From the IMG/VR virus record IMGVR_UViG_2778261390_000002, positions 1 through 14,781 of that record: DNA of 14,781 nucleotides; one strand, 5' to 3'. The notes below the pieces were generated by a model. It made no database searches, was not told the DNA's origin, and was given only the letters and a program-made list of their open reading frames with translations. Below are positions 2,629 through 14,781 of this stretch, in pieces. The number at the start of each line of letters is the position of its first letter. The stretch's first letter is position 1. The translations under genes and the position numbers were made by a program. Origin of the DNA: a virus (taxonomy: Duplodnaviria > Heunggongvirae > Uroviricota > Caudoviricetes).

Positions 2629-2974
2629 TCTCTGCTCCTGTTGATACGGAAAGGGAAACAGGCACACCGTTATTACGCCGCCCGGTCAGCCCCACCACCA
2701 TTGAACCGTCAAAATTGCTGTTGATGGTGATGGAATCCAGCATCAGCCGTGGCTCCCAGCGACTCAGTGCCACATACACAGCCGACATGACCTGCAGCCG
2801 TAATGCCGGATTTTGTGGCTGATCTATTAAAGCCGACAGCAGAGAACCATATTCACGACGAGCAATGCGGCTACCCTGCGGCGTCAGCAGAATGTCCCGC
2901 ACCGACTGGCGCAGATGGTCAATATCAGTAATGGCTTTGCCGCTGGTATTGTTCATCCCGCTATAAAGCGTCAT
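2615..2974 (-). CDS. W: Baseplate wedge protein W (gp25/GPW family)
   Basis: 119-aa ORF starting MTLYSGMNNTSGKAITDIDHLRQSVRDILLTPQGSR..., GPW-like. ATG at 2974 overlaps the V stop (ATGA). GGAGG SD upstream. Confidence 0.9.
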   Translation of the reverse strand: MTLYSGMNNTSGKAITDIDHLRQSVRDILLTPQGSRIARREYGSLLSALIDQPQNPALRLQVMSAVYVALSRWEPRLMLDSITINSNFDGSMVVGLTGRRNNGVPVSLSVSTGAENGSD

Positions 2975-3549
2975 ACCGGGCCTCCGGTTGTGTCGCCGCC
3001 TTTCAGGACACCAGTATGCTGATGCGCATCAAGCACGATCCCGTTAGAACTCATCGCTCCGCCGCCCTGGGTAACACCGCCATTGATCACCACGTCGCTG
3101 TTAATGCGTGTGCGGTCAGCCTCCAGTACAAACTCACTGGTTTTCAGGGTGATGTTGTCGACAGCCTCAATGACCATTGATTTGATGCCCCTGACATACC
3201 AGCGCCCGGTGGCGGGTTCGTATTCAAACCAGCCACCGTCAGGATATTCTGTCACGCAGGCGTCCGCCGACGTCGACGGCGGTGCGAACTGATTCGAATA
3301 GACAGCGGGCAACGCAAAGGCGGTTTCCAGATTGCCACCCAGACTCAGCAGCACCACCTGCTCACCTTCCGATGGTCGCCACCATGTGCGTGCATTCCCG
3401 GCACGCAGCGTCAGCCAGCTGATCCAGTTGGTTTCAAGGTCGCCCGTTTTCACCCGGCAAAGCCAGTTCTCCCGGTCCACTTCGGTGACTACACCAGTGC
3501 GAATCAGGTTGGTGATAAGGCGCATGATTTCGGTTAAATGTGCGTTCAT
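2971..3549 (-). CDS. V: Baseplate spike / assembly protein V (P2 gpV-like)
   Basis: 192-aa ORF starting MNAHLTEIMRLITNLIRTGVVTEVD..., gpV-like. First gene after the S-V intergenic region. No SD upstream of the ATG at 3549; a late-promoter-like architecture ends 6 nt before it, so the mRNA may be leaderless. An internal ATG at 3525 is an alternative start. Confidence 0.85.
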   Translation of the reverse strand: MNAHLTEIMRLITNLIRTGVVTEVDRENWLCRVKTGDLETNWISWLTLRAGNARTWWRPSEGEQVVLLSLGGNLETAFALPAVYSNQFAPPSTSADACVTEYPDGGWFEYEPATGRWYVRGIKSMVIEAVDNITLKTSEFVLEADRTRINSDVVINGGVTQGGGAMSSNGIVLDAHQHTGVLKGGDTTGGPV

Positions 3550-3613
3550 GAGAAAAAACTAACCGCCATTGCAAACGCAATCGAGTAGATAGGAATGTTT
3601 GATTCATGGCACA
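3550..3613 (-). promoter_or_regulatory. Candidate Ogr-type late promoter for V: TGT-N12-ACA box plus -10-like hexamer
   Basis: TGTTTGATTCATGGCACA at 3596-3613 matches the TGT-N12-ACA dyad of P2/P4 late promoters. Its centre is 55.5 nt upstream of the A of the V ATG. On the minus strand TAGTTT (3561-3556) sits 34 nt after the box and 6 nt before the ATG. The same spacing is seen upstream of P. Confidence 0.55.
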
Positions 3614-3641
3614 ATACGTTGCTTACTTTTAAGGATATAAA

Positions 3642-4403
3642 ATGAAAGACAATTTAAATCTTCTTATAAAAAAATTAATAAGAAAGGCATTTCCTGAATT
3701 TAGCAATAAGGTAACATGGACTTTACTCACTGCAGGGATCGGTATTCTTGCACTACCTGCACCCACATATTTATTATTCGTAAACCTTATAATTGATTTT
3801 TACAACAAAACAACTAATTCAGAAATCAGCCTTCTTAAGATTGATAGCATTACACCAAGTAGTGGGGTTGCTTTAACTTTAATTCTATCCGGGCTAGTCT
3901 TTCACCTATTAATAAAAGCCCCCCATATATACCAAGAAATTCTAAAAGAGAATAACCAAAAAGAAATACAGGAAAGAAAAAGAGTAGCAGACGTTAAACT
4001 TTATGAGGCATTTATTGATATTCTACCTACAACCTCGTTATCAATTGAATTCTTAAAAGACCATGATTTTGAAAACTCCTATCATGATAATAATACAAAA
4101 GATATTAGTAATCTTGAATACGGGTGGGGTCATGCAGATCAACATTTTCATGACAATGAAATTGAAGATAAAGCCACTCATCTTTACAGTGAAATAATAA
4201 AGTTTAATTATTTTCTCGCTTATAAATCGCACAATATCAATGACTATATGTTTAGCATGCTTACTGACAGAGATCGAGCTATGGTGATGGAATTACTACC
4301 TCAAACAAAGGAAAATATAAAAATAGCCAATGAGTGGAGTTCTACAATTCATCAGCTTTACTGTGACTTTATCTCCACATGTAGGAATAACTTAGCCATA
4401 TAA
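3642..4403 (+). CDS. Hypothetical membrane protein encoded by an AT-rich moron between V and S; function unknown
   Basis: 253-aa ORF on the strand opposite to all flanking late genes. ATG at 3642 is preceded by AAGGA at 7 nt spacing. Composition is strongly AT-rich (by eye about 30 percent GC against mid-50s or higher in neighbours). Two hydrophobic segments (VTWTLLTAGIGILALPAPTYLLFVNLIIDF and VALTLILSGLVFHLLI) are followed by a roughly 160-aa polar, charged domain. I recognise no catalytic motif. Confidence 0.7.
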   Translation: MKDNLNLLIKKLIRKAFPEFSNKVTWTLLTAGIGILALPAPTYLLFVNLIIDFYNKTTNSEISLLKIDSITPSSGVALTLILSGLVFHLLIKAPHIYQEILKENNQKEIQERKRVADVKLYEAFIDILPTTSLSIEFLKDHDFENSYHDNNTKDISNLEYGWGHADQHFHDNEIEDKATHLYSEIIKFNYFLAYKSHNINDYMFSMLTDRDRAMVMELLPQTKENIKIANEWSSTIHQLYCDFISTCRNNLAI

Positions 4404-4421
4404 ATTATATGCTGTAGTTAA

Positions 4422-4865
4422 TTAAGACAAGTAACGAAAAAAAATATCACGAGTTATCATTTCCGCTTCGTCGTTAACACCCAAAAGGCGACGCTCTGCA
4501 TAACGGACCTCAGGTCCCTTACGACTGACACGATCGCGCAGGCCGTAGTGATGAACGCGGGCAATGCGCTGCACCTTACCTTCAAACTGCACGCTGGCAG
4601 AATCGGCGCTGGCGGCAGTTTTCAGATATTTTGTGGTGCGCAGCTTTGCAAACATCTGACGTTTGATACGCCCCTTTTTACTGCGTGCTGTTACCCGTCG
4701 CGGTTCATAACTACTGCCATCTGGATTGCGCTGCATCCTGATGTTCTTCTGTTGTGTCCGGCGCAGTTCCTGCGCCAGCTGGCGCATCATGCGACTTCTC
4801 GTGGCTGGTTCCAGATTCGCCAGCAAGGCACTCAACCAGTCGTCCACCTTCTGCAGTTCAGCCAC
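4422..4865 (-). CDS. S: Tail completion protein S (P2 gpS-like)
   Basis: 147-aa ORF starting (GTG)AELQKVDDWLSALLANLEPATRSRMMRQLAQELRR..., gpS-like. The start codon at 4865 is GTG, with no nearby in-frame ATG. Overlaps the R stop by 8 nt. The last 6 or so codons lie in the AT-rich moron segment. Confidence 0.85.
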   Translation of the reverse strand: MAELQKVDDWLSALLANLEPATRSRMMRQLAQELRRTQQKNIRMQRNPDGSSYEPRRVTARSKKGRIKRQMFAKLRTTKYLKTAASADSASVQFEGKVQRIARVHHYGLRDRVSRKGPEVRYAERRLLGVNDEAEMITRDIFFRYLS

Positions 4866-9992: not shown

Positions 9993-11759
9993 ATGAACAC
10001 CACACTGACACCCGCAGATCTCGATCCCCGTCGGCAGGCCATGCTGCTGTACTTTCAGGGATACCGCGTAGCCCGCATTGCTGAAATGCTGGGCGAGAAA
10101 GTTGCAACCGTTCACAGCTGGAAAAAACGCGACAAGTGGGGTGACTATGGGCCGCTGGATCAGATGCAGCTCACCACCGCCGCACGCTACTGCCAGCTCA
10201 TTATGAAGGAGCACAAAGAAGGGAAAGATTTCAAAGAGATTGACCTGCTGGCGCGCCAGTCTGAGCGCCACGCGCGGATCGGCAAATTTAACAATGGCGG
10301 CAACGAAGCCGACTTAAATCCTAACGTCGCCAACCGCAACAAAGGCCCGCGCCGTCAGCCGGAAAAAAATGTCTTCACCGATGAACAGATTGAGAAGCTG
10401 GAAGAAATCTTCCATTCCTCCATGTTCAACTACCAGCGCCACTGGTGGGAAGCCGGAAAAACCAACCGCATCCGCAACCTGCTGAAGTCACGCCAGATCG
10501 GCGCGACCTTCTATTTTGCCCGTGAAGCCCTGATTGACGCCCTGCTTACCGGACGTAACCAGATTTTCCTTTCTGCCAGTAAGGCACAGGCCCACGTCTT
10601 TAAGCAGTACATCATCGACTTCGCCAAAGAAGTGGAGGTGGAGCTGAAAGGCGATCCGATGGTGCTTCCTAACGGGGCCACGCTTTACTTCCTCGGCACC
10701 AATGCCCGCACGGCCCAGAGTTATCACGGCAACCTGTATCTGGATGAATATTTCTGGATACCGAAATTTCAGGAGCTACGCAAAGTGGCTTCCGGTATGG
10801 CTATTCACAAGAAATGGCGGCAGACCTATTTTTCCACACCATCCAGTCTGACCCACAGTGCTTATCCGTTCTGGTCCGGTGCGCTGTTCAACCGTGGGCG
10901 CAACAAAGCCGATAAGGTGGACATCGACCTGTCCCACAGCAATCTGGCCCCCGGCCTGCTGTGCGCAGACGGGCAATACCGCCAGATAGTCACCGTGGAA
11001 GATGCGGTGCGCGGCGGCTGTAACCTGTTCGATCTCGACCAGTTGCGCATGGAGTACAGCCCGGACGAATACCAGAACCTGCTGATGTGTGAGTTCGTGG
11101 ACGATCTCGCGTCCGTGTTCCCGCTCAGCGAGCTGCAGGCGTGCATGGTGGACAGCTGGGAAGTCTGGACCGACTTTCATGCACTGGCGCTGCGCCCGTT
11201 TGGCTGGCGCGAAGTGTGGATCGGTTATGACCCGGCAAAAGGTACGCAAAACGGCGACAGCGCCGGGTGCGTGGTGGTGGCACCGCCAGCGGTGCCAGGC
11301 GGTAAGTTTCGCATTCTTGAGCGTCACCAGTGGCGCGGGATGGACTTCCGCGCCCAGGCTGACGCCATCAAAAAACTGACCGAACAGTACAACGTGACCT
11401 ATATCGGCATCGACTCAACCGGCGTCGGTCACGGGGTTTACGAGAACGTGAAAGCGTTTTTTCCTGCCGTCCGGGAGTTTGTCTACAACCCCAACGTTAA
11501 AAACGCCCTAGTACTCAAGGCCTACGACATTATTAGCCACCGCCGCCTGGAGTTTGACGCCGGGCACACCGACATAGCGCAGTCCTTTATGGCAATCCGT
11601 CGCGCCACCACTGCCAGCGGCAACCGCCCGACCTATGAAGCCAGCCGCAGCGAAGAAGCCAGCCACGCCGATCTGGCCTGGGCAACAATGCACGCACTGT
11701 TTAACGAACCGCTGCAGGGCGAGTCCGCCAATACCAGCAATATTGTGGAGATTTTTTGA
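9993..11759 (+). CDS. P: Terminase large (ATPase) subunit P (P2 gpP-like)
   Basis: 588-aa ORF, close to the roughly 590 aa of P2 gpP, with gpP-like sequence throughout. 9993 is the first start codon after an in-frame TAG. Stop TGA overlaps the Q ATG (TGATG). Confidence 0.95.
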   Translation: MNTTLTPADLDPRRQAMLLYFQGYRVARIAEMLGEKVATVHSWKKRDKWGDYGPLDQMQLTTAARYCQLIMKEHKEGKDFKEIDLLARQSERHARIGKFNNGGNEADLNPNVANRNKGPRRQPEKNVFTDEQIEKLEEIFHSSMFNYQRHWWEAGKTNRIRNLLKSRQIGATFYFAREALIDALLTGRNQIFLSASKAQAHVFKQYIIDFAKEVEVELKGDPMVLPNGATLYFLGTNARTAQSYHGNLYLDEYFWIPKFQELRKVASGMAIHKKWRQTYFSTPSSLTHSAYPFWSGALFNRGRNKADKVDIDLSHSNLAPGLLCADGQYRQIVTVEDAVRGGCNLFDLDQLRMEYSPDEYQNLLMCEFVDDLASVFPLSELQACMVDSWEVWTDFHALALRPFGWREVWIGYDPAKGTQNGDSAGCVVVAPPAVPGGKFRILERHQWRGMDFRAQADAIKKLTEQYNVTYIGIDSTGVGHGVYENVKAFFPAVREFVYNPNVKNALVLKAYDIISHRRLEFDAGHTDIAQSFMAIRRATTASGNRPTYEASRSEEASHADLAWATMHALFNEPLQGESANTSNIVEIF

Positions 11760-12790
11760 TGGGAAAGAGTAAGAAAAACCGCGCTGCGGCGACGAATCAG
11801 CTCAAGCATAAAAGCCAAACTTCAGCCGAAGCATTCAGCTTTGGCGATCCCGTTCCTGTTCTGGACCGCCGTGAACTGCTGGACTATGTGGAATGCGTAC
11901 AGATGGACCGCTGGTATGAGCCGCCCGTCAGCTTTGACGGACTGGCACGAACCTTCCGCGCCGCCGTGCATCACAGCTCACCAATTGCGGTGAAATGCAA
12001 CATTCTGACCAGTACCTACATCCCTCACCCGCTGCTCAGCCAGCAGGCTTTTTCACGTTTTGTGCAGGACTATCTGGTATTTGGTAACGCCTACCTGGAG
12101 AAACGCACGAACCGCTTCGGTGAAGTTATCGCCCTTGAGCCTGCTCTGGCAAAATACACCCGACGCGGGTTAGACTTGGATACCTACTGGTTTGTGCAAT
12201 ACGGTATGACAACCCAGCCGTATCAGTTCACGAAAGGCAGCATTTTTCATCTGATGGAACCGGACATCAACCAGGAGATCTACGGCCTGCCAGGTTATCT
12301 TTCTGCCATTCCATCAGCCCTGCTCAACGAGTCCGCCACGCTGTTCCGCCGCAAGTATTACATTAACGGCAGTCATGCAGGCTTCATCATGTACATGACC
12401 GATGCCGCGCAGAACCAGGAGGATGTGAACAACCTCCGCAATGCGATGAAAAGCGCCAAAGGCCCTGGCAACTTCCGTAACCTGTTTATGTACTCGCCTA
12501 ACGGTAAAAAGGACGGGCTTCAGATTATCCCGTTGTCAGAAGTGGCGGCGAAGGATGAGTTCCTGAATATCAAGAACGTGAGCCGGGACGACATGATGGC
12601 GGCGCATCGTGTGCCGCCACAAATGATGGGGATAATGCCTAATAATGTCGGGGGGTTTGGGGATGTGGAGAAGGCCAGTCTCGTTTTTGTTCGTAATGAG
12701 TTAATACCATTGCAGAAACGACTAAAGGAACTAAATCACTGGCTTGGTGAGAAAGTAGTTAACTTTAAAACTTATGCCTTAAACTGTTAA
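11759..12790 (+). CDS. Q: Portal protein Q (P2 gpQ-like)
   Basis: 343 aa from ATG 11759 (MGKSKKNRAAATNQ...AFSFGDPVPVLDRRELLDYVECVQMDRWYEPPVSF...), gpQ-like. GGAG lies 10 nt upstream. The ORF-track start at 11756 is a TTG one codon earlier. Confidence 0.95.
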   Translation: MGKSKKNRAAATNQLKHKSQTSAEAFSFGDPVPVLDRRELLDYVECVQMDRWYEPPVSFDGLARTFRAAVHHSSPIAVKCNILTSTYIPHPLLSQQAFSRFVQDYLVFGNAYLEKRTNRFGEVIALEPALAKYTRRGLDLDTYWFVQYGMTTQPYQFTKGSIFHLMEPDINQEIYGLPGYLSAIPSALLNESATLFRRKYYINGSHAGFIMYMTDAAQNQEDVNNLRNAMKSAKGPGNFRNLFMYSPNGKKDGLQIIPLSEVAAKDEFLNIKNVSRDDMMAAHRVPPQMMGIMPNNVGGFGDVEKASLVFVRNELIPLQKRLKELNHWLGEKVVNFKTYALNC

Positions 12791-12807
12791 AAATGATTAT
12801 GAAACAA

Positions 12808-12826
12808 GGCGCTTAACATAAGCGCC
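12808..12826. terminator. Candidate bidirectional intrinsic terminator between convergent Q and the island gene
   Basis: Perfect hairpin GGCGCTTA-aca-TAAGCGCC (8-bp stem, 3-nt loop), placed between the Q stop (12790) and the minus-strand gene stop (12836). Flanks are A/T-rich on both strands, but neither side has a clean U-run. Confidence 0.45.
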
Positions 12827-12835
12827 CAATATATA

Positions 12836-14617
12836 TTAGATTATATTATAGGCCTTCGCTGACATAGATAATGTTCTAATCTGAACTTTTTGGGCATTCC
12901 ATTCCTCATCGTTAGATGAATACTCATCAATAAACTCATTAACCACCTTAAGGTTTGACTTCTTATACTCGTTTATTTTTTGACTTAAGCTATCATTTTT
13001 ACATGATTCATTCAAAGTAAAGCAAAGAGGAAGAAGATTCCCCATTAATCCAACAACCTCTGAGTCAAAACTACTTTGTGCACCAATATGCTCGAGTGAA
13101 ACTAAGTCTAATTTTAACTCATTAGTTCCTCGCAATTTCTTTTCAAAACGTTCAAAAATATACATTATGAGCTTACGCTGGGAGGCTTTTTTATTTGTAT
13201 AAAATAAATTTTTAACAAATGCCTCATTGAATACTTTTTCATTTGGACTTTTCGCAGAAAAGTATGCTATTGCTTCACTAATGGTTGATTCGATACTACG
13301 TTTATTAGTAGCTTTATCAAGGCTTACTGCTAATACTGAATACTTGGCGTCTATGCCAGAGGGTCTTAATCGGCAAATAGCATTAAATCTAAAGTGGAAT
13401 CTCTCTAAACACATTAGACACTCTATTAAACTTTTTTGCGAAAGACTTCTAGATTTATCTCTTCTTTTTCTTAATAATGACAAAATGAATGGGCGAGGGA
13501 TTGAAACATTGAATATTTCAAATGCTTTAAGTGAATTGTAAATATCTCGCTGATCCTGTTGAGGCCAATCATCAATATCTGGAGAAATTATCTTACAATA
13601 TAAATCAACATCTTTATGCAACTCATCCAAAAATGAAATTGCAGTTAATCCATAAACACCATCATTTATCTCTCTTTTAAAGGCACGGTATAGTTGATCT
13701 TCACCTATATAATTAAACTTAGAAAGCCACCAACACCTGACATAATCAACCATTGTAGCGTTACTATCTCTAGCTTCGATGCAATTAGTAATATAATCCC
13801 ATTTCTCTTTGGCTTTATCTATTGGATATGTTTCAATACAACTCTGGAAAACTTTATTTTTAATCAGATCAAGGGAGCTTAAGTTTATTCCCCTTGCATT
13901 CAAAACCTCGAAAATATCATACGCGTCATCTTCCTTGCCTACTGATATCCTTACTAATTTAAGATAATTAGTAACCATATTGTAAACGGCATTCAAGCAA
14001 AAAAGGTAATCTTCCTTTTTATACTTTACTGCACCGTCACGCAACAAAGAAGAACATAATGCTTTCTTTCCTAGCTTTCTGCTTAAATACAACCCAGCAT
14101 ATTGAATCTTTTTATCTTCATCGCAAGTCACATCAGCTTTATGCTCAACTCTATCTTGGAATTTTAGTTTAAAAAAAGCCCTGTCACTATTTTTAGAAAG
14201 CTTCTCAACTACTGAGTCGCCATTAGAACTGACAGAATTTCTATTGAACGTCTGATTTGCGGTTACGATATATGTTTTAAAAATATCATCAGCAAATTCG
14301 GCCTTCCCATTTTTTCTTAAAAACCTAGAAATTAAAGAAAGTAGAATTGTAATAACACTGAAACGCTGCTGACCATCAACAATCTCCAAAACATTATCAC
14401 TGTCAGCACCAGACAATACAATTGTACCAATAAAGTACTCATTGAATTCAAAGTCATCCCCTTTGGGATTTAATTTTATATTTCTTATTATGTCTTGCCA
14501 CAATTCATCAAGTTGTAACTTTTCCCAACTAAATTCTCGTTGATTCCGTGGAATCACATAACGCTGTTTAACAGAAAGTATATTTTTAATATTTAAAGGA
14601 GTTGCATCAAAATTCAT
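12836..14617 (-). CDS. DUF262/DUF1524 (GmrSD-family, ParB-like NTPase plus HNH-like nuclease) protein; putative type IV restriction / anti-phage defence enzyme
   Basis: N-terminal DUF262 motifs are present: RYVIPRNQREFSWEK (IPxxQRxFxW type), EIVDGQQRFSVI (DGQQR) and DIFEVLNARGINLSSLDLIKNK. C-terminal DUF1524 motifs are present: LEHIGAQ (EHIxxQ) and GNLLPLCFTLNESCKND. Strongly AT-rich. Start is most likely ATG at 14617 (MNFDATPLNIKNILS..., 593 aa), with a GGGAA SD-like sequence and a TTGTTT-N17-TAAATT promoter-like sequence upstream. The ORF-track TTG at 14668 would lie upstream of that putative transcription start. Confidence 0.85.
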   Translation of the reverse strand: MNFDATPLNIKNILSVKQRYVIPRNQREFSWEKLQLDELWQDIIRNIKLNPKGDDFEFNEYFIGTIVLSGADSDNVLEIVDGQQRFSVITILLSLISRFLRKNGKAEFADDIFKTYIVTANQTFNRNSVSSNGDSVVEKLSKNSDRAFFKLKFQDRVEHKADVTCDEDKKIQYAGLYLSRKLGKKALCSSLLRDGAVKYKKEDYLFCLNAVYNMVTNYLKLVRISVGKEDDAYDIFEVLNARGINLSSLDLIKNKVFQSCIETYPIDKAKEKWDYITNCIEARDSNATMVDYVRCWWLSKFNYIGEDQLYRAFKREINDGVYGLTAISFLDELHKDVDLYCKIISPDIDDWPQQDQRDIYNSLKAFEIFNVSIPRPFILSLLRKRRDKSRSLSQKSLIECLMCLERFHFRFNAICRLRPSGIDAKYSVLAVSLDKATNKRSIESTISEAIAYFSAKSPNEKVFNEAFVKNLFYTNKKASQRKLIMYIFERFEKKLRGTNELKLDLVSLEHIGAQSSFDSEVVGLMGNLLPLCFTLNESCKNDSLSQKINEYKKSNLKVVNEFIDEYSSNDEEWNAQKVQIRTLSMSAKAYNII

Positions 14618-14654
14618 ATCATCATTCCCTAGACATGACCATGGGTTGATCGTT

Positions 14655-14683
14655 AATTTACTTAACAAGATAGATTAAAACAA
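14655..14683 (-). promoter_or_regulatory. Candidate sigma70-type promoter for the DUF262/DUF1524 gene
   Basis: Minus strand reads TTGTTT (14683-14678), a 17-nt spacer, then TAAATT (14660-14655). Predicted start near 14648, about 30 nt upstream of ATG 14617. Lies in AT-rich DNA, so a chance match is possible. Confidence 0.35.
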
Positions 14684-14710
14684 CTATTACTAATTCATAT
14701 CTCAGCGCGC

Positions 14711-14730
14711 GCTCGTATCCCCGCCACGCC
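14711..14730. other. cos-like cohesive-end site (P2/186-type)
   Basis: Minus strand reads GGCGTGGCGGGGATACGAGC followed by GCGCGCTGAG. The first 13 nt match the 19-nt cohesive ends I recall for 186 (GGCGTGGCGGGGAAAGCAT) and, with one mismatch, P2 (GGCGAGGCGGGGAAAGCAC). Orientation and position fit P2, where Q is transcribed toward the left cos. An abrupt return to GC-rich sequence occurs at about 14703. Confidence 0.5.
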
Positions 14731-14781
14731 TGCCCGCTTTATGTAGTGGTTTTCATGCACCTGCATGATCTACGCAAAAGC

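What the first reader, a model, noticed from the sequence alone, without database searches (positions are those of the whole stretch)
12791..14702. GmrSD-family DUF262/DUF1524 nuclease-like gene in an AT-rich island between portal gene Q and cos
A roughly 1.9-kb AT-rich island lies between the Q stop and the cos-like site. It carries one gene, convergent with Q, whose product shows hallmark DUF262 motifs (QRxFxW, DGQQR, DIFEVLNxRG...DLIKN) and a C-terminal DUF1524 His-Me finger motif (EHIxxQ, GNLLPL...N). Single-chain DUF262-DUF1524 proteins include GmrSD-type type IV restriction enzymes that cut modified (hmC or glucosyl-hmC) DNA, and BrxU. The cos-proximal region of P2-like phages is a reported hotspot for anti-phage systems (old and tin in P2). 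This is therefore probably a prophage-carried defence enzyme against modified-DNA phages such as T-even phages. Which subfamily it belongs to, and its specificity, cannot be read from the sequence.
Basis: partly seen in the sequence, partly recalled or inferred. Interest (0 to 1): 0.7.

Follow-up and report, generated by a model that had tools for sequence, protein, structure and literature searches.

The report
Prophage-carried GmrSD-like defence nuclease gene
An intact gene for a GmrSD-like (HEC-06-type) NTPase-nuclease sits as swappable AT-rich cargo between the portal gene and the cos site of a P2/186-like E. coli prophage; it is most likely an anti-phage restriction enzyme, and both the protein family and the hotspot are already known, so this is an ordinary, untested member.

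Summary
Window 12836-14617 (- strand) encodes an intact 593-aa protein. The gene lies in a 33%-GC island between portal gene Q and the 19-nt cos end (14712-14730). The best defence-model match is PADLOC HEC-06, over the full length (E 4e-73). HEC-06 is a published single-gene defence that needs its DGQQR and EH motifs and is reported to block T4. A distant HEC-06 homologue restricts T-even phages but not unmodified T4-GT7. Our protein is only 24% identical to the tested HEC-06. Among solved structures, the predicted fold is closest to DndI (TM 0.67), then SspE and BrxU. However, the phosphorothioate-sensor tyrosine is Asn here, and no relative examined sits next to dnd or ssp genes. The gene is under strong purifying selection (dN/dS 0.05). 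Alleles 35-100% identical occupy the same slot in many P2-like prophages, and other phages carry different defence genes there. Near-identical proteins are listed as cluster CLS_026 in a 2025 GmrSD survey, which tested only clusters 1-20. Verdict: a new, untested member of a known kind, in a known hotspot. Target specificity is inferred, not shown.

The parts
12836..14617 (-). CDS for a 593-aa GmrSD-like (HEC-06-type) protein. It is identical in length, and 99-100% identical in sequence, to RefSeq 'DUF262 domain-containing protein' WP_096148403.1 / WP_047662251.1.
   Evidence: dN/dS 0.05 and no internal stops in the 6 copies checked
13847..14590 (-). N-terminal DUF262/GmrSD_N (ParB-like NTPase) domain, residues 10-257.
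   Evidence: Pfam PF03235, E 4e-32, covering the whole profile 1-199/199
14363..14377 (-). DGQQR motif (residues 81-85), the NTP-hydrolysis motif of GmrSD-like proteins.
   Evidence: Invariant in 36 family members. Q79A/R80A in HEC-06 and R87A in DndI abolish defence.
12863..13243 (-). C-terminal DUF1524/GmrSD_C His-Me finger nuclease domain, residues 459-585.
   Evidence: Pfam PF07510, E 4e-9. The AF2 model shows strand 506-510, strand 528-532 and helix 533-539, i.e. a beta-beta-alpha element.
13088..13093 (-). E509-H510, the predicted catalytic Glu-His of the His-Me finger.
   Evidence: Invariant in the family. The equivalent E471A/H472A mutations abolish HEC-06 defence.
13010..13042 (-). 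GNLLPLCFTLN (residues 526-536), holding the two Asn residues of the HNH-type motif.
   Evidence: G526, N527, L528, P530 and N536 are invariant. DndI N541A, in the corresponding motif, abolishes nicking.
12807..12827 (-). Terminator-like hairpin between the convergent stop codons of Q and the defence gene.
   Evidence: 9-bp stem with 5 G-C pairs and a T-rich tail on the - strand
14618..14711 (-). AT-rich non-coding leader between cos and the start codon. It contains an AGGGA ribosome-binding-like site at 14626-14630. The promoter is presumed to be here but was not identified.
   Evidence: Sequence. The consensus scan found no promoter-like site upstream on the - strand.
14712..14730 (-). cosL-like 19-nt cohesive-end sequence, GGCGTGGCGGGGATACGAG.
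   Evidence: Alignment with the annotated cos of P2 and 186. The flank is conserved in 85 P2-like phage records.
11759..12790 (+). Portal gene Q (context). Its last ~80-120 nt are AT-rich and lie inside the variable cassette.
12709..14698 (.). Variable cargo cassette, i.e. the stretch with no similarity to other P2-like phages.
   Evidence: blastn borders against RE-2010 and vB_EcoM-813R9. Those phages carry an AIPR gene or a Hypoth_Ymh gene in the same slot.

Best explanation
The gene encodes a stand-alone, single-chain GmrSD-like enzyme of the HEC-06 type, carried as accessory cargo by a P2/186-like prophage in the swap slot between portal gene Q and cos.

Inferred mechanism, from characterised relatives: the protein acts as an NTP-driven restriction nuclease. 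The N-terminal ParB-like DUF262 domain (DGQQR motif) binds and hydrolyses NTP and controls conformation and DNA engagement. The C-terminal DUF1524 His-Me finger (E509/H510, N527, N536) nicks or cuts the incoming DNA. It protects the lysogen from superinfecting phages.

Self/non-self discrimination is most likely intrinsic. The enzyme probably recognises hypermodified bases such as hmC or glucosyl-hmC of T-even phages, rather than depending on a partner modification system.

What is shown here: gene integrity, domain and motif content, family placement, cargo status and purifying selection. What is inferred from homologues: defence activity, NTP dependence and the modified-DNA target.

My confidence is about 0.85 for 'GmrSD-like/HEC-06-type anti-phage nuclease cargo' and about 0.5-0.55 for 'modification-dependent, T-even-type targets'.
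For: Domains and models.
- Both Pfam domains score above cut-off.
- The best PADLOC model is HEC-06 PDLC04154, E 4e-73, covering residues 3-592. The experimentally tested HEC-06 protein scores best on the same models.
- BLASTP to the tested HEC-06 gives 24% identity over 437 aa, E 3e-27.

Published tests on relatives.
- HEC-06 defence requires DGQQR and EH (bioRxiv 10.1101/2024.01.29.577857). Both motifs are invariant in our family.
- HEC-06 is reported to block T4. A 22%-identical homologue restricts T-even phages but not cytosine-unmodified T4-GT7 (bioRxiv 10.1101/2025.02.28.640651).

Structure. The AF2 model has pLDDT 86 and a beta-beta-alpha nuclease element. The only significant PDB fold matches are DndI, SspE and BrxU.

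Selection. dN/dS is 0.05.

Context.
- 9 of 9 homologue gene contexts examined in detail show solo genes without dnd/ssp/BREX/Hma partners.
- Alleles of 35-100% identity recur convergent to a P2-type portal in 25 IMG/VR loci.
- Other phages carry AIPR or Hypoth_Ymh genes in the same slot.
- The A-Q/cos interval is a validated defence hotspot, and the published tables already list DUF262/DUF1524 arrangements there (PMC9122126).
Against: - No experiment exists on this protein or its cluster. Near-identical proteins fall in CLS_026 of PMC12373910, and only CLS_001-020 were synthesised and tested.
- Identity to the tested HEC-06 is only 24%. Specificity in GmrSD-like enzymes varies widely, from glucosyl-hmC only, to 5mC/hmC, to phosphorothioate sensing.
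- The HEC-06 phage spectrum is given only in figures I could not read.
- The nearest solved structure, DndI, is not modification-dependent in the type IV sense.
- No promoter was recognised upstream, so expression in the lysogen is unverified.
Confidence: 0.6

Rival explanations
1. It is a GmrSD-like defence nuclease whose trigger is not DNA hypermodification. It might sense another feature of infection, such as a phage protein, a DNA end or a replication intermediate. It could then restrict unmodified phages or act by abortive infection.
For: - The family is very diverse, and members differ in phage spectrum. The preprint's text says the HEC-06 spectrum differs from that of BrxU.
- The closest fold, DndI, cuts unmodified DNA.
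- Neighbouring cassettes in the same slot are Abi-like, e.g. AIPR in RE-2010.
- The sensor-pocket residue 25 varies (N/Y/F) between clades, which hints at varying ligands.
Against: - A constitutively active nuclease on unmodified DNA would be toxic without a protective partner, yet the gene is solo in all contexts seen and is strongly conserved.
- The two published tests of HEC-06-type proteins point to T-even and modification dependence.
Confidence: 0.22
2. It is a phosphorothioate-sensing enzyme like DndI or SspE. It would use host DNA phosphorothioation, made by dnd or ssp genes elsewhere in the genome, to tell self from phage DNA.
For: - The best sequence hit in the PDB is DndI 9JFL, E 7e-9.
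- The best fold match is also DndI, TM 0.67-0.68 over the full length, followed by SspE.
- PADLOC SspE models hit the N-terminal ~100 residues.
Against: - The phosphorothioate-sensing tyrosine (DndI Y25, SspE Y30; PMC11662687) is Asn25 here and throughout this clade.
- No dnd or ssp gene lies near any of the 9 homologue contexts examined.
- The gene rides a transmissible prophage found in E. coli. Its 91%-identical allele is found in Salmonella, Citrobacter, Hafnia, Edwardsiella and Klebsiella. Dependence on a host modification system is therefore implausible.
- I could not scan the host genomes for distant dnd/ssp loci.
Confidence: 0.05
3. It serves the prophage itself rather than host immunity. 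For example, it could degrade host or competitor DNA during lytic growth, or interfere with P4-like satellites or rival P2-like phages at the cos site.
For: - It lies within ~100 nt of cos, on an element that is parasitised by cos-sharing P4 satellites.
- A hotspot system of phage AC1 also acts against P2 relatives.
Against: - The slot is dispensable: P2 and 186 have only ~190 nt there.
- The same family occurs on plasmids and as solo chromosomal genes with no phage nearby.
- The gene is transcribed convergently to the late operon and has its own terminator.
Confidence: 0.08
4. It is a decaying or inactive remnant with no present function.
For: Some distant family members are fragmented, e.g. 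the Enterobacter asburiae pieces P0149-P0154. No promoter was detected.
Against: - The reading frame is intact in every copy checked, and dN/dS is 0.05.
- All catalytic motifs are invariant.
- The 18 complete E. coli genomes carry it at 99.0-100% nucleotide identity, in each annotated as a DUF262 domain-containing protein.
Confidence: 0.02

Closest known systems
HEC-06 (Hma-embedded candidate 06; PADLOC PDLC04154; tested protein WP_096851903.1; Payne et al., bioRxiv 10.1101/2024.01.29.577857)
   Same: - Single-chain architecture of about 560-590 aa: DUF262, helical linker, DUF1524.
- It is the best full-length HMM match.
- DGQQR and EH are conserved, and both are required for HEC-06 defence.
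- It acts alone as a defence gene.
   Different: - Only 24% identity.
- HEC-06 was found embedded in Hma systems, whereas this gene is solo cargo in a P2-like prophage.
- The residue at the sensor-pocket position is Phe in HEC-06 and Asn here.
- This protein's phage spectrum is unknown.
DndI of Salmonella enterica Cerro 87 (PDB 9JFL; PMC11662687)
   Same: - Closest solved structure by sequence (E 7e-9) and by fold (TM 0.67, full length).
- Same size, about 596 aa.
- It has the DGQQR ATPase and the C-terminal HNH-type nickase.
   Different: - DndI is co-transcribed with dndFGH and works with IscS-DndBCDE phosphorothioation.
- Its sensor residue Tyr25 is Asn here.
- No dnd genes are linked to this gene.
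- Identity in the structural alignment is 17%.
GmrSD (Eco CT596 / Eco94GmrSD) and BrxU (PDB 7P9K), type IV restriction enzymes
   Same: - The same two Pfam domains and the DGQQR and (D/E)H motifs.
- Single-protein, NTP-dependent, modification-dependent restriction of T-even phages. This is the working model adopted here.
   Different: - Similarity is confined to the N-terminal ~100-260 residues: mREase_IV E 2e-14 over residues 7-267, and a BrxU-like protein E 3e-5 over 116 aa.
- The fold match to BrxU is weak (TM 0.32-0.35).
- There is no RLFDS motif.
- The gene is not embedded in BREX.
SspE (PDB 6JIV, 7DRS)
   Same: DUF262 NTPase plus a C-terminal nickase. It is the second-best fold match (E 1e-14).
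   Different: - SspE has 771 aa.
- It depends on SspABCD phosphorothioation.
- It has the sensor Tyr30.
- Sequence similarity covers only the first ~100 residues.
P2-like A-Q/cos defence hotspot (Rousset et al. 2022, PMC9122126; Moura de Sousa et al. 2026, PMC13586616)
   Same: Same locus class. The published Table S5A already lists 'DUF262/DUF1524' single-gene arrangements with the same DinI and hypothetical-gene neighbours.
   Different: - This gene lies on the Q side of cos, whereas P2's old and tin lie on the A side.
- No DUF262/DUF1524 system from the hotspot is named among those reported as validated there.

Membership tests
GmrSD family (Pfam GmrSD_N + GmrSD_C; Machnicka et al. 2015 definition) | N-terminal DUF262/ParB-like domain scoring above the Pfam gathering threshold | tested here: met
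   PF03235, 112.3 bits against a cut-off of 33.2; the whole profile is covered
GmrSD family (Pfam GmrSD_N + GmrSD_C; Machnicka et al. 2015 definition) | C-terminal DUF1524 His-Me finger domain scoring above the gathering threshold | tested here: met
   PF07510, 36.9 bits against a cut-off of 23; profile positions 3-135 of 138. The AF2 model shows a beta-beta-alpha element at residues 506-539.
GmrSD family (Pfam GmrSD_N + GmrSD_C; Machnicka et al. 2015 definition) | DGQQR NTPase motif and (D/E)H...N...N nuclease motif present and conserved | tested here: met
   D81-R85, E509, H510, N527 and N536 are invariant in 36 homologues down to 37% identity
GmrSD family (Pfam GmrSD_N + GmrSD_C; Machnicka et al. 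2015 definition) | Modification-dependent (type IV) cleavage of hmC or glucosyl-hmC DNA, stimulated by NTP | not testable with these tools
   This needs plaque assays and nuclease assays. The only support is indirect, from HEC-06 relatives.
HEC-06 (PADLOC) | Best-scoring, full-length match to a HEC-06 HMM | tested here: met
   PDLC04154, E 4e-73, residues 3-592 on profile positions 7-563 of 569. The top three hits are all HEC-06 models. The tested HEC-06 protein scores best on the same model. PADLOC's own calling thresholds were not available.
HEC-06 (PADLOC) | Provides phage defence as a single gene, dependent on DGQQR and EH | not testable with these tools
   The motifs are present; the phenotype is untested. 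Cluster CLS_026 was not among those synthesised in PMC12373910.
HEC-06 (PADLOC) | Embedded in Hma, type I RM or similar systems (the context in which it was discovered) | tested here: not met
   The gene is solo in a P2-like prophage. No Hma, RM-I or BREX genes lie nearby in this locus or in the 8 further homologue contexts. Embedding is how HEC-06 was found, not a functional requirement.
Phosphorothioate-sensing DndI/SspE type | Genetic linkage to dndBCDE/iscS or sspABCD modification genes | tested here: not met
   None within 7-20 kb in any context examined. Whole host genomes were not scanned.
Phosphorothioate-sensing DndI/SspE type | Sensor tyrosine in the N-terminal hydrophobic pocket (DndI Y25, SspE Y30) | tested here: not met
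   The aligned residue is Asn25. It is Asn in every member of this clade, and Tyr or Phe in more distant clades.
Phosphorothioate-sensing DndI/SspE type | Overall fold similar to DndI or SspE | tested here: met
   Foldseek: 9JFL E 7e-16, TM 0.67-0.68; 7DRR/7DRS E 1e-14
BrxU | Full-length sequence similarity to BrxU, and embedding in a BREX locus | tested here: not met
   Only 116 N-terminal residues align with the 99%-BrxU-identical HEC-05 fragment, E 3e-5. Fold TM is 0.32-0.35. There are no BREX genes.
P2-like cos-proximal defence hotspot cargo | Lies between gpA and gpQ of a P2-like phage, next to cos, in a region that varies between related phages | tested here: met
   Prophage gene order; cos alignment; alternative cargo in RE-2010 and 813R9; recurrence of divergent alleles in the slot

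The most novel reading that the evidence does not exclude
The Asn25 clade (CLS_026 and relatives) might be a GmrSD-like enzyme with a new specificity. It could recognise a DNA mark other than hmC or glucosyl-hmC, such as deazaguanine, hydroxymethyl-uracil derivatives or momylated adenine. Alternatively it could respond to a non-modification cue, so that it restricts phages current type IV enzymes miss. In that case the variable pocket residue (N/Y/F at position 25) would act as a specificity switch across the family.
Probability: 0.15. Interest if true: 0.5.

Novelty: new member of a known kind. Interest (0 to 1): 0.25.

Why it matters
If active, this gene is one more example of temperate phages arming their hosts against lytic phages. 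It would be directly relevant to the resistance of farm-animal and clinical E. coli to T4-like therapeutic phages.

Its practical value is as a well-defined test case. It is compact, untested (cluster CLS_026), solo and naturally mobile. Divergent alleles sit in exactly the same slot, which suits comparison of specificity and of evasion by T4 internal proteins.

It does not open a new category. The protein family, its catalytic motifs, its defence role and the hotspot are all published.

Tried and rejected
- First attempt at the start coordinate (14618) was out of frame. Corrected to 14617.
- NCBIfam gave no meaningful hit.
- DNA (megablast) and protein (tblastn) searches of 50,697 deposited phage genomes found no close relative. 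The only hits were weak ones to Listeria phages. The gene is therefore known only from prophages and uncultivated viral contigs.
- The main texts of the two P2-hotspot papers do not mention GmrSD or DUF262. Only the supplementary tables do.
- I could not learn the phage spectrum of HEC-06 from the preprint, because it is only in the figures.
- I could not trace the origin of the PADLOC model name 'Orf5'. These models overlap the HEC-06 models.
- The phosphorothioate-sensing hypothesis was considered because DndI is the best PDB hit. I rejected it as the main reading because of Asn25 and the missing linkage.
- BrxU and classical GmrSD membership were rejected because similarity is N-terminal only.
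- The promoter scan found nothing convincing upstream.
Full report
**1. What is in the sequence**

The - strand of the window carries one long open reading frame at 12836..14668. The TTG listed by the ORF tool is not the likely start. An ATG at 14617, with AGGGA 9 nt upstream (14626-14630), gives a 593-aa product. This is exactly the CDS annotated in RefSeq as 'DUF262 domain-containing protein' WP_096148403.1.

GC content is 0.32-0.34 from 12800 to 14600, against 0.52-0.61 in the terminase and portal genes just upstream. The gene is convergent with portal gene Q (11759..12790, +). A 9-bp G+C-rich hairpin with a T-rich tail on the - strand (12807-12827) lies between the two stop codons.

**2. 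The element and the slot**

The 1.9-kb island is 100% identical to a stretch of E. coli ETEC4089 and occurs in 18 of 5,426 complete E. coli genomes. It is always chromosomal and 99.0-100% identical.

In ETEC4089 it lies in a complete 186/P2-like prophage. The gene order is tail and baseplate genes, lysis genes, capsid genes, P, Q, [this gene], DinI-like, a small hypothetical gene, replication endonuclease gpA, and so on to CI and integrase.

On the - strand, 14730..14712 reads GGCGTGGCGGGGATACGAG. It aligns base for base with the annotated 19-nt cohesive ends of 186 (GGCGTGGCGGGGAAAGCAT) and P2 (GGCGAGGCGGGGAAAGCAC), and with the GCGCGC that follows them. The ~85 nt from 14698 to the window end are conserved (80-99% identity, mostly 95% or more) in 85 deposited P2-like phages.

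In P2 and 186 the portal stop codon is only 187-196 nt from the cohesive end. Here the distance is 1.9 kb, so the gene is an insertion or replacement on the Q side of cos.

Similarity to Salmonella phage RE-2010 and Escherichia phage vB_EcoM-813R9 stops at 12775 and 12708 and resumes at 14699 and 14698. In exactly that interval those phages carry a different single gene, also convergent with Q: an AIPR (Abi-like) protein 'that prevents superinfection', and a Hypoth_Ymh-domain protein.

This is therefore a cassette-swap slot within the gpA-gpQ, cos-proximal hotspot described by Rousset et al. (PMC9122126). The supplementary tables of that paper already list 'DUF262/DUF1524' arrangements with the same DinI and hypothetical-gene neighbours.

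**3. What the protein is**

Pfam gives GmrSD_N (PF03235, E 4e-32, full profile) over residues 10-257 and GmrSD_C (PF07510, E 4e-9) over residues 459-585. Both are above the curated cut-offs.

Against PADLOC, the three best models are all HEC-06: PDLC04154 (E 4e-73, residues 3-592 on 7-563/569), PDLC04157 and PDLC04155. Models named 'Orf5' follow. The SspE and type IV 'mREase_IV' models match only the N-terminal 100-260 residues.

The HEC-06 protein tested by Payne et al. scores best on the same two models (PDLC04154 and Orf5 PDLC02687). It aligns with ours at 24% identity over 437 residues (E 3e-27). A 99%-BrxU-identical protein aligns over only 116 residues (E 3e-5).

PHROGs holds the family as phrog_21165, 'unknown function'.

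**4. Family, conservation and structure**

There are 904 homologues with E<1e-5. Nearly all are 575-597 aa with both domains. They come from Enterobacterales, Vibrio, Shewanella, Aeromonas and cyanobacteria.

In an alignment of 36 members down to 37% identity, the following are invariant: Y20, R24, Q26, R27, S30, W31, D81-R85, E237, L239-G243, L251-N254, E509, H510, Q514, G526-L528, P530 and N536.

The window gene compared with the 85%-nucleotide-identical allele of Salmonella and Citrobacter prophages gives dS 0.98, dN 0.049 and dN/dS 0.05. All six copies checked are free of internal stops. It is not a pseudogene.

An AlphaFold2 model built on this alignment has mean pLDDT 86. It shows an N-terminal alpha/beta domain, a long helical middle region, and a C-terminal strand-strand-helix element (506-510, 528-532, 533-539). 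That element carries E509/H510, N527 and N536, the layout of a His-Me finger.

The only significant matches among solved structures are DndI (9JFL, E 7e-16, TM 0.67-0.68 over the full length), SspE (E 1e-14) and BrxU (E 8e-6, TM about 0.33). DndI is also the best PDB hit by sequence (E 7e-9).

**5. Which mechanism**

Four kinds of GmrSD-like enzyme have been characterised.
- Classical GmrSD cleaves glucosyl-hmC DNA.
- BrxU also digests hypo-modified T4 DNA.
- SspE is activated by host phosphorothioate.
- DndI is a constitutive nickase that host phosphorothioate plus ATP hydrolysis keeps off self DNA (PMC11662687).

Because DndI is the closest solved relative, I tested the phosphorothioate reading. 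The sensor tyrosine (DndI Y25, SspE Y30) aligns with Asn25 in our protein. It is Asn throughout our clade, while more distant clades have Tyr or Phe.

None of the contexts examined contains dnd, ssp, BREX or Hma genes:
- this prophage;
- the 91% allele in Salmonella prophages;
- a 37% allele in other E. coli P2-like prophages;
- a 47% allele on an IncFII plasmid;
- a Vibrio copy beside a filamentous prophage;
- four solo chromosomal or integrase-island copies.

A nuclease that travels on a prophage cannot rely on a host-specific modification system. Here the host range covers E. coli and, for the 91% allele, Salmonella, Citrobacter, Hafnia, Edwardsiella and Klebsiella.

The most economical way for a solo enzyme to spare host and prophage DNA is to require a mark that only invaders carry. 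This is type IV logic. It fits the published data. HEC-06 loses defence with Q79A/R80A (DGQQR) or E471A/H472A (EH). HEC-06 is reported to block T4, and a 22%-identical Bacteroides homologue protects against T-even phages but never against cytosine-unmodified T4-GT7.

Two further points are inference only. E. coli hosts carry Dam/Dcm methylation (established knowledge). Some relatives also sit beside C5-cytosine methyltransferase genes. Both suggest that simple 5mC or 6mA is tolerated and that the target is a bulkier modification.

The mechanism I commit to is this. NTP binding and hydrolysis by the DUF262 domain gates DNA engagement, and the His-Me finger nicks or cleaves hypermodified incoming DNA, which protects the lysogen. 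Only the sequence-level prerequisites are shown here.

**6. Recurrence of the slot**

A scan of IMG/VR found 71 viral loci encoding relatives. Of the 36 with at least 34% identity, 25 have a P2-type portal gene convergent and 45-191 nt downstream. Allele identity in these ranges from 100% to 35%, while portal identity stays at 62-95% (mostly 73-95%). Divergent alleles of one family have therefore repeatedly been placed, or have diversified, in the same slot.

**7. Comparison with what is known, and novelty**

The family (GmrSD-like, HEC-06), its catalytic requirements, its defence role and the P2 hotspot are all published.

Near-identical proteins (WP_047662251 from strain ACN001 and WP_204148132 from FDAARGOS_1248) are listed as cluster CLS_026 in the enterobacterial GmrSD survey of PMC12373910. 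The 37%-identical slot-mates form CLS_024. That study synthesised and tested only CLS_001-020, so this cluster has no experimental record.

No deposited phage genome carries a close relative.

I therefore rate the finding as a new, untested member of a known kind. The added value here is:
- the subfamily placement (HEC-06-type by sequence, DndI-like by fold, not BrxU or classical GmrSD);
- the exclusion of the phosphorothioate and pseudogene readings;
- the exact borders of the cassette.

**8. Limits**

- Specificity and activity are inferred from relatives at 22-24% identity.
- I could not read the HEC-06 phage spectrum, which appears only in figures.
- No promoter was identified.
- Host genomes were not scanned for unlinked dnd or ssp loci.
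- AlphaFold inter-domain geometry is unreliable for this family, as Payne et al. also note.

Noticed in passing
window 3560-4420 (ORF 3642..4403, + strand): A second AT-rich island (GC 0.32 against ~0.56 in the flanks). It holds a 253-aa ORF antisense to the surrounding late genes, between baseplate gene V (2971..3549, -) and a virion-morphogenesis gene (4422..4865, -). From memory, this is the position of P2's non-essential orf30. The product has two hydrophobic N-terminal segments and no Pfam, PADLOC or PHROG hit. In ETEC4089 the same gene is split by an IS1 insertion. It may be another moron or exclusion gene.
   Followed up: partly
window 12670-12790 (3' end of Q): The last ~120 nt of portal gene Q are AT-rich (GC 0.35 against 0.53 for the rest of the gene). 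The same holds in RE-2010 and 813R9, which carry other cargo, but not in cargo-less P2 and 186 (0.51-0.54). DNA similarity between phages ends inside Q (12708-12775), while the encoded C-terminal peptide keeps its pattern. The swapped cassettes therefore seem to bring their own version of the last ~25-40 codons of Q.
   Followed up: partly
L002 2228-3892 and L003 2781-3932: The same Q-cos slot holds an AIPR-family ('prevents superinfection') gene in Salmonella phage RE-2010 and a Hypoth_Ymh-domain gene in Escherichia phage vB_EcoM-813R9. Both are convergent with Q.
   Followed up: no
L001 29609-31129 (outside the window): The same prophage in ETEC4089 carries a GapS1-family gene just beyond the integrase, i.e. 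a second defence-type cargo at the int-att end. Its Dam-like methylase gene (25143-26001) is frameshifted.
   Followed up: no
L004 5705-7749; L013 10830-12768: In Salmonella prophages with the 91% allele, the A side of cos carries a C5-cytosine DNA methylase plus a 285-aa unknown protein, probably a restriction-modification pair. A Vibrio relative also sits near a C5 methylase with an HTH gene. Coexistence suggests these enzymes tolerate at least some 5-methylcytosine.
   Followed up: no
L008 7001-8794: A 47%-identical family member is on an IncFII plasmid, near ParE/RelB, StbA/ParM partition genes and an AcrVA2-like gene. The family therefore moves on plasmids as well as phages.
   Followed up: no
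proteins P0149-P0154, P0159 (Enterobacter asburiae, cluster of P0097): In a distant (38% identity) chromosomal branch, some genomes have the gene broken into 131-, 235-, 197- and 464-aa pieces. This indicates local pseudogenisation, which is not seen for the allele in this window.
   Followed up: no
L001 21988-22012 (just beyond the window end): A strong G+C hairpin (GCCCGCCAGTTCTGGCGGGC) lies between the DinI-like gene and cos. It would stop read-through from the early/DinI side, so the defence gene probably needs its own promoter within about 14618-14760. None was recognised by the consensus scan.
   Followed up: partly
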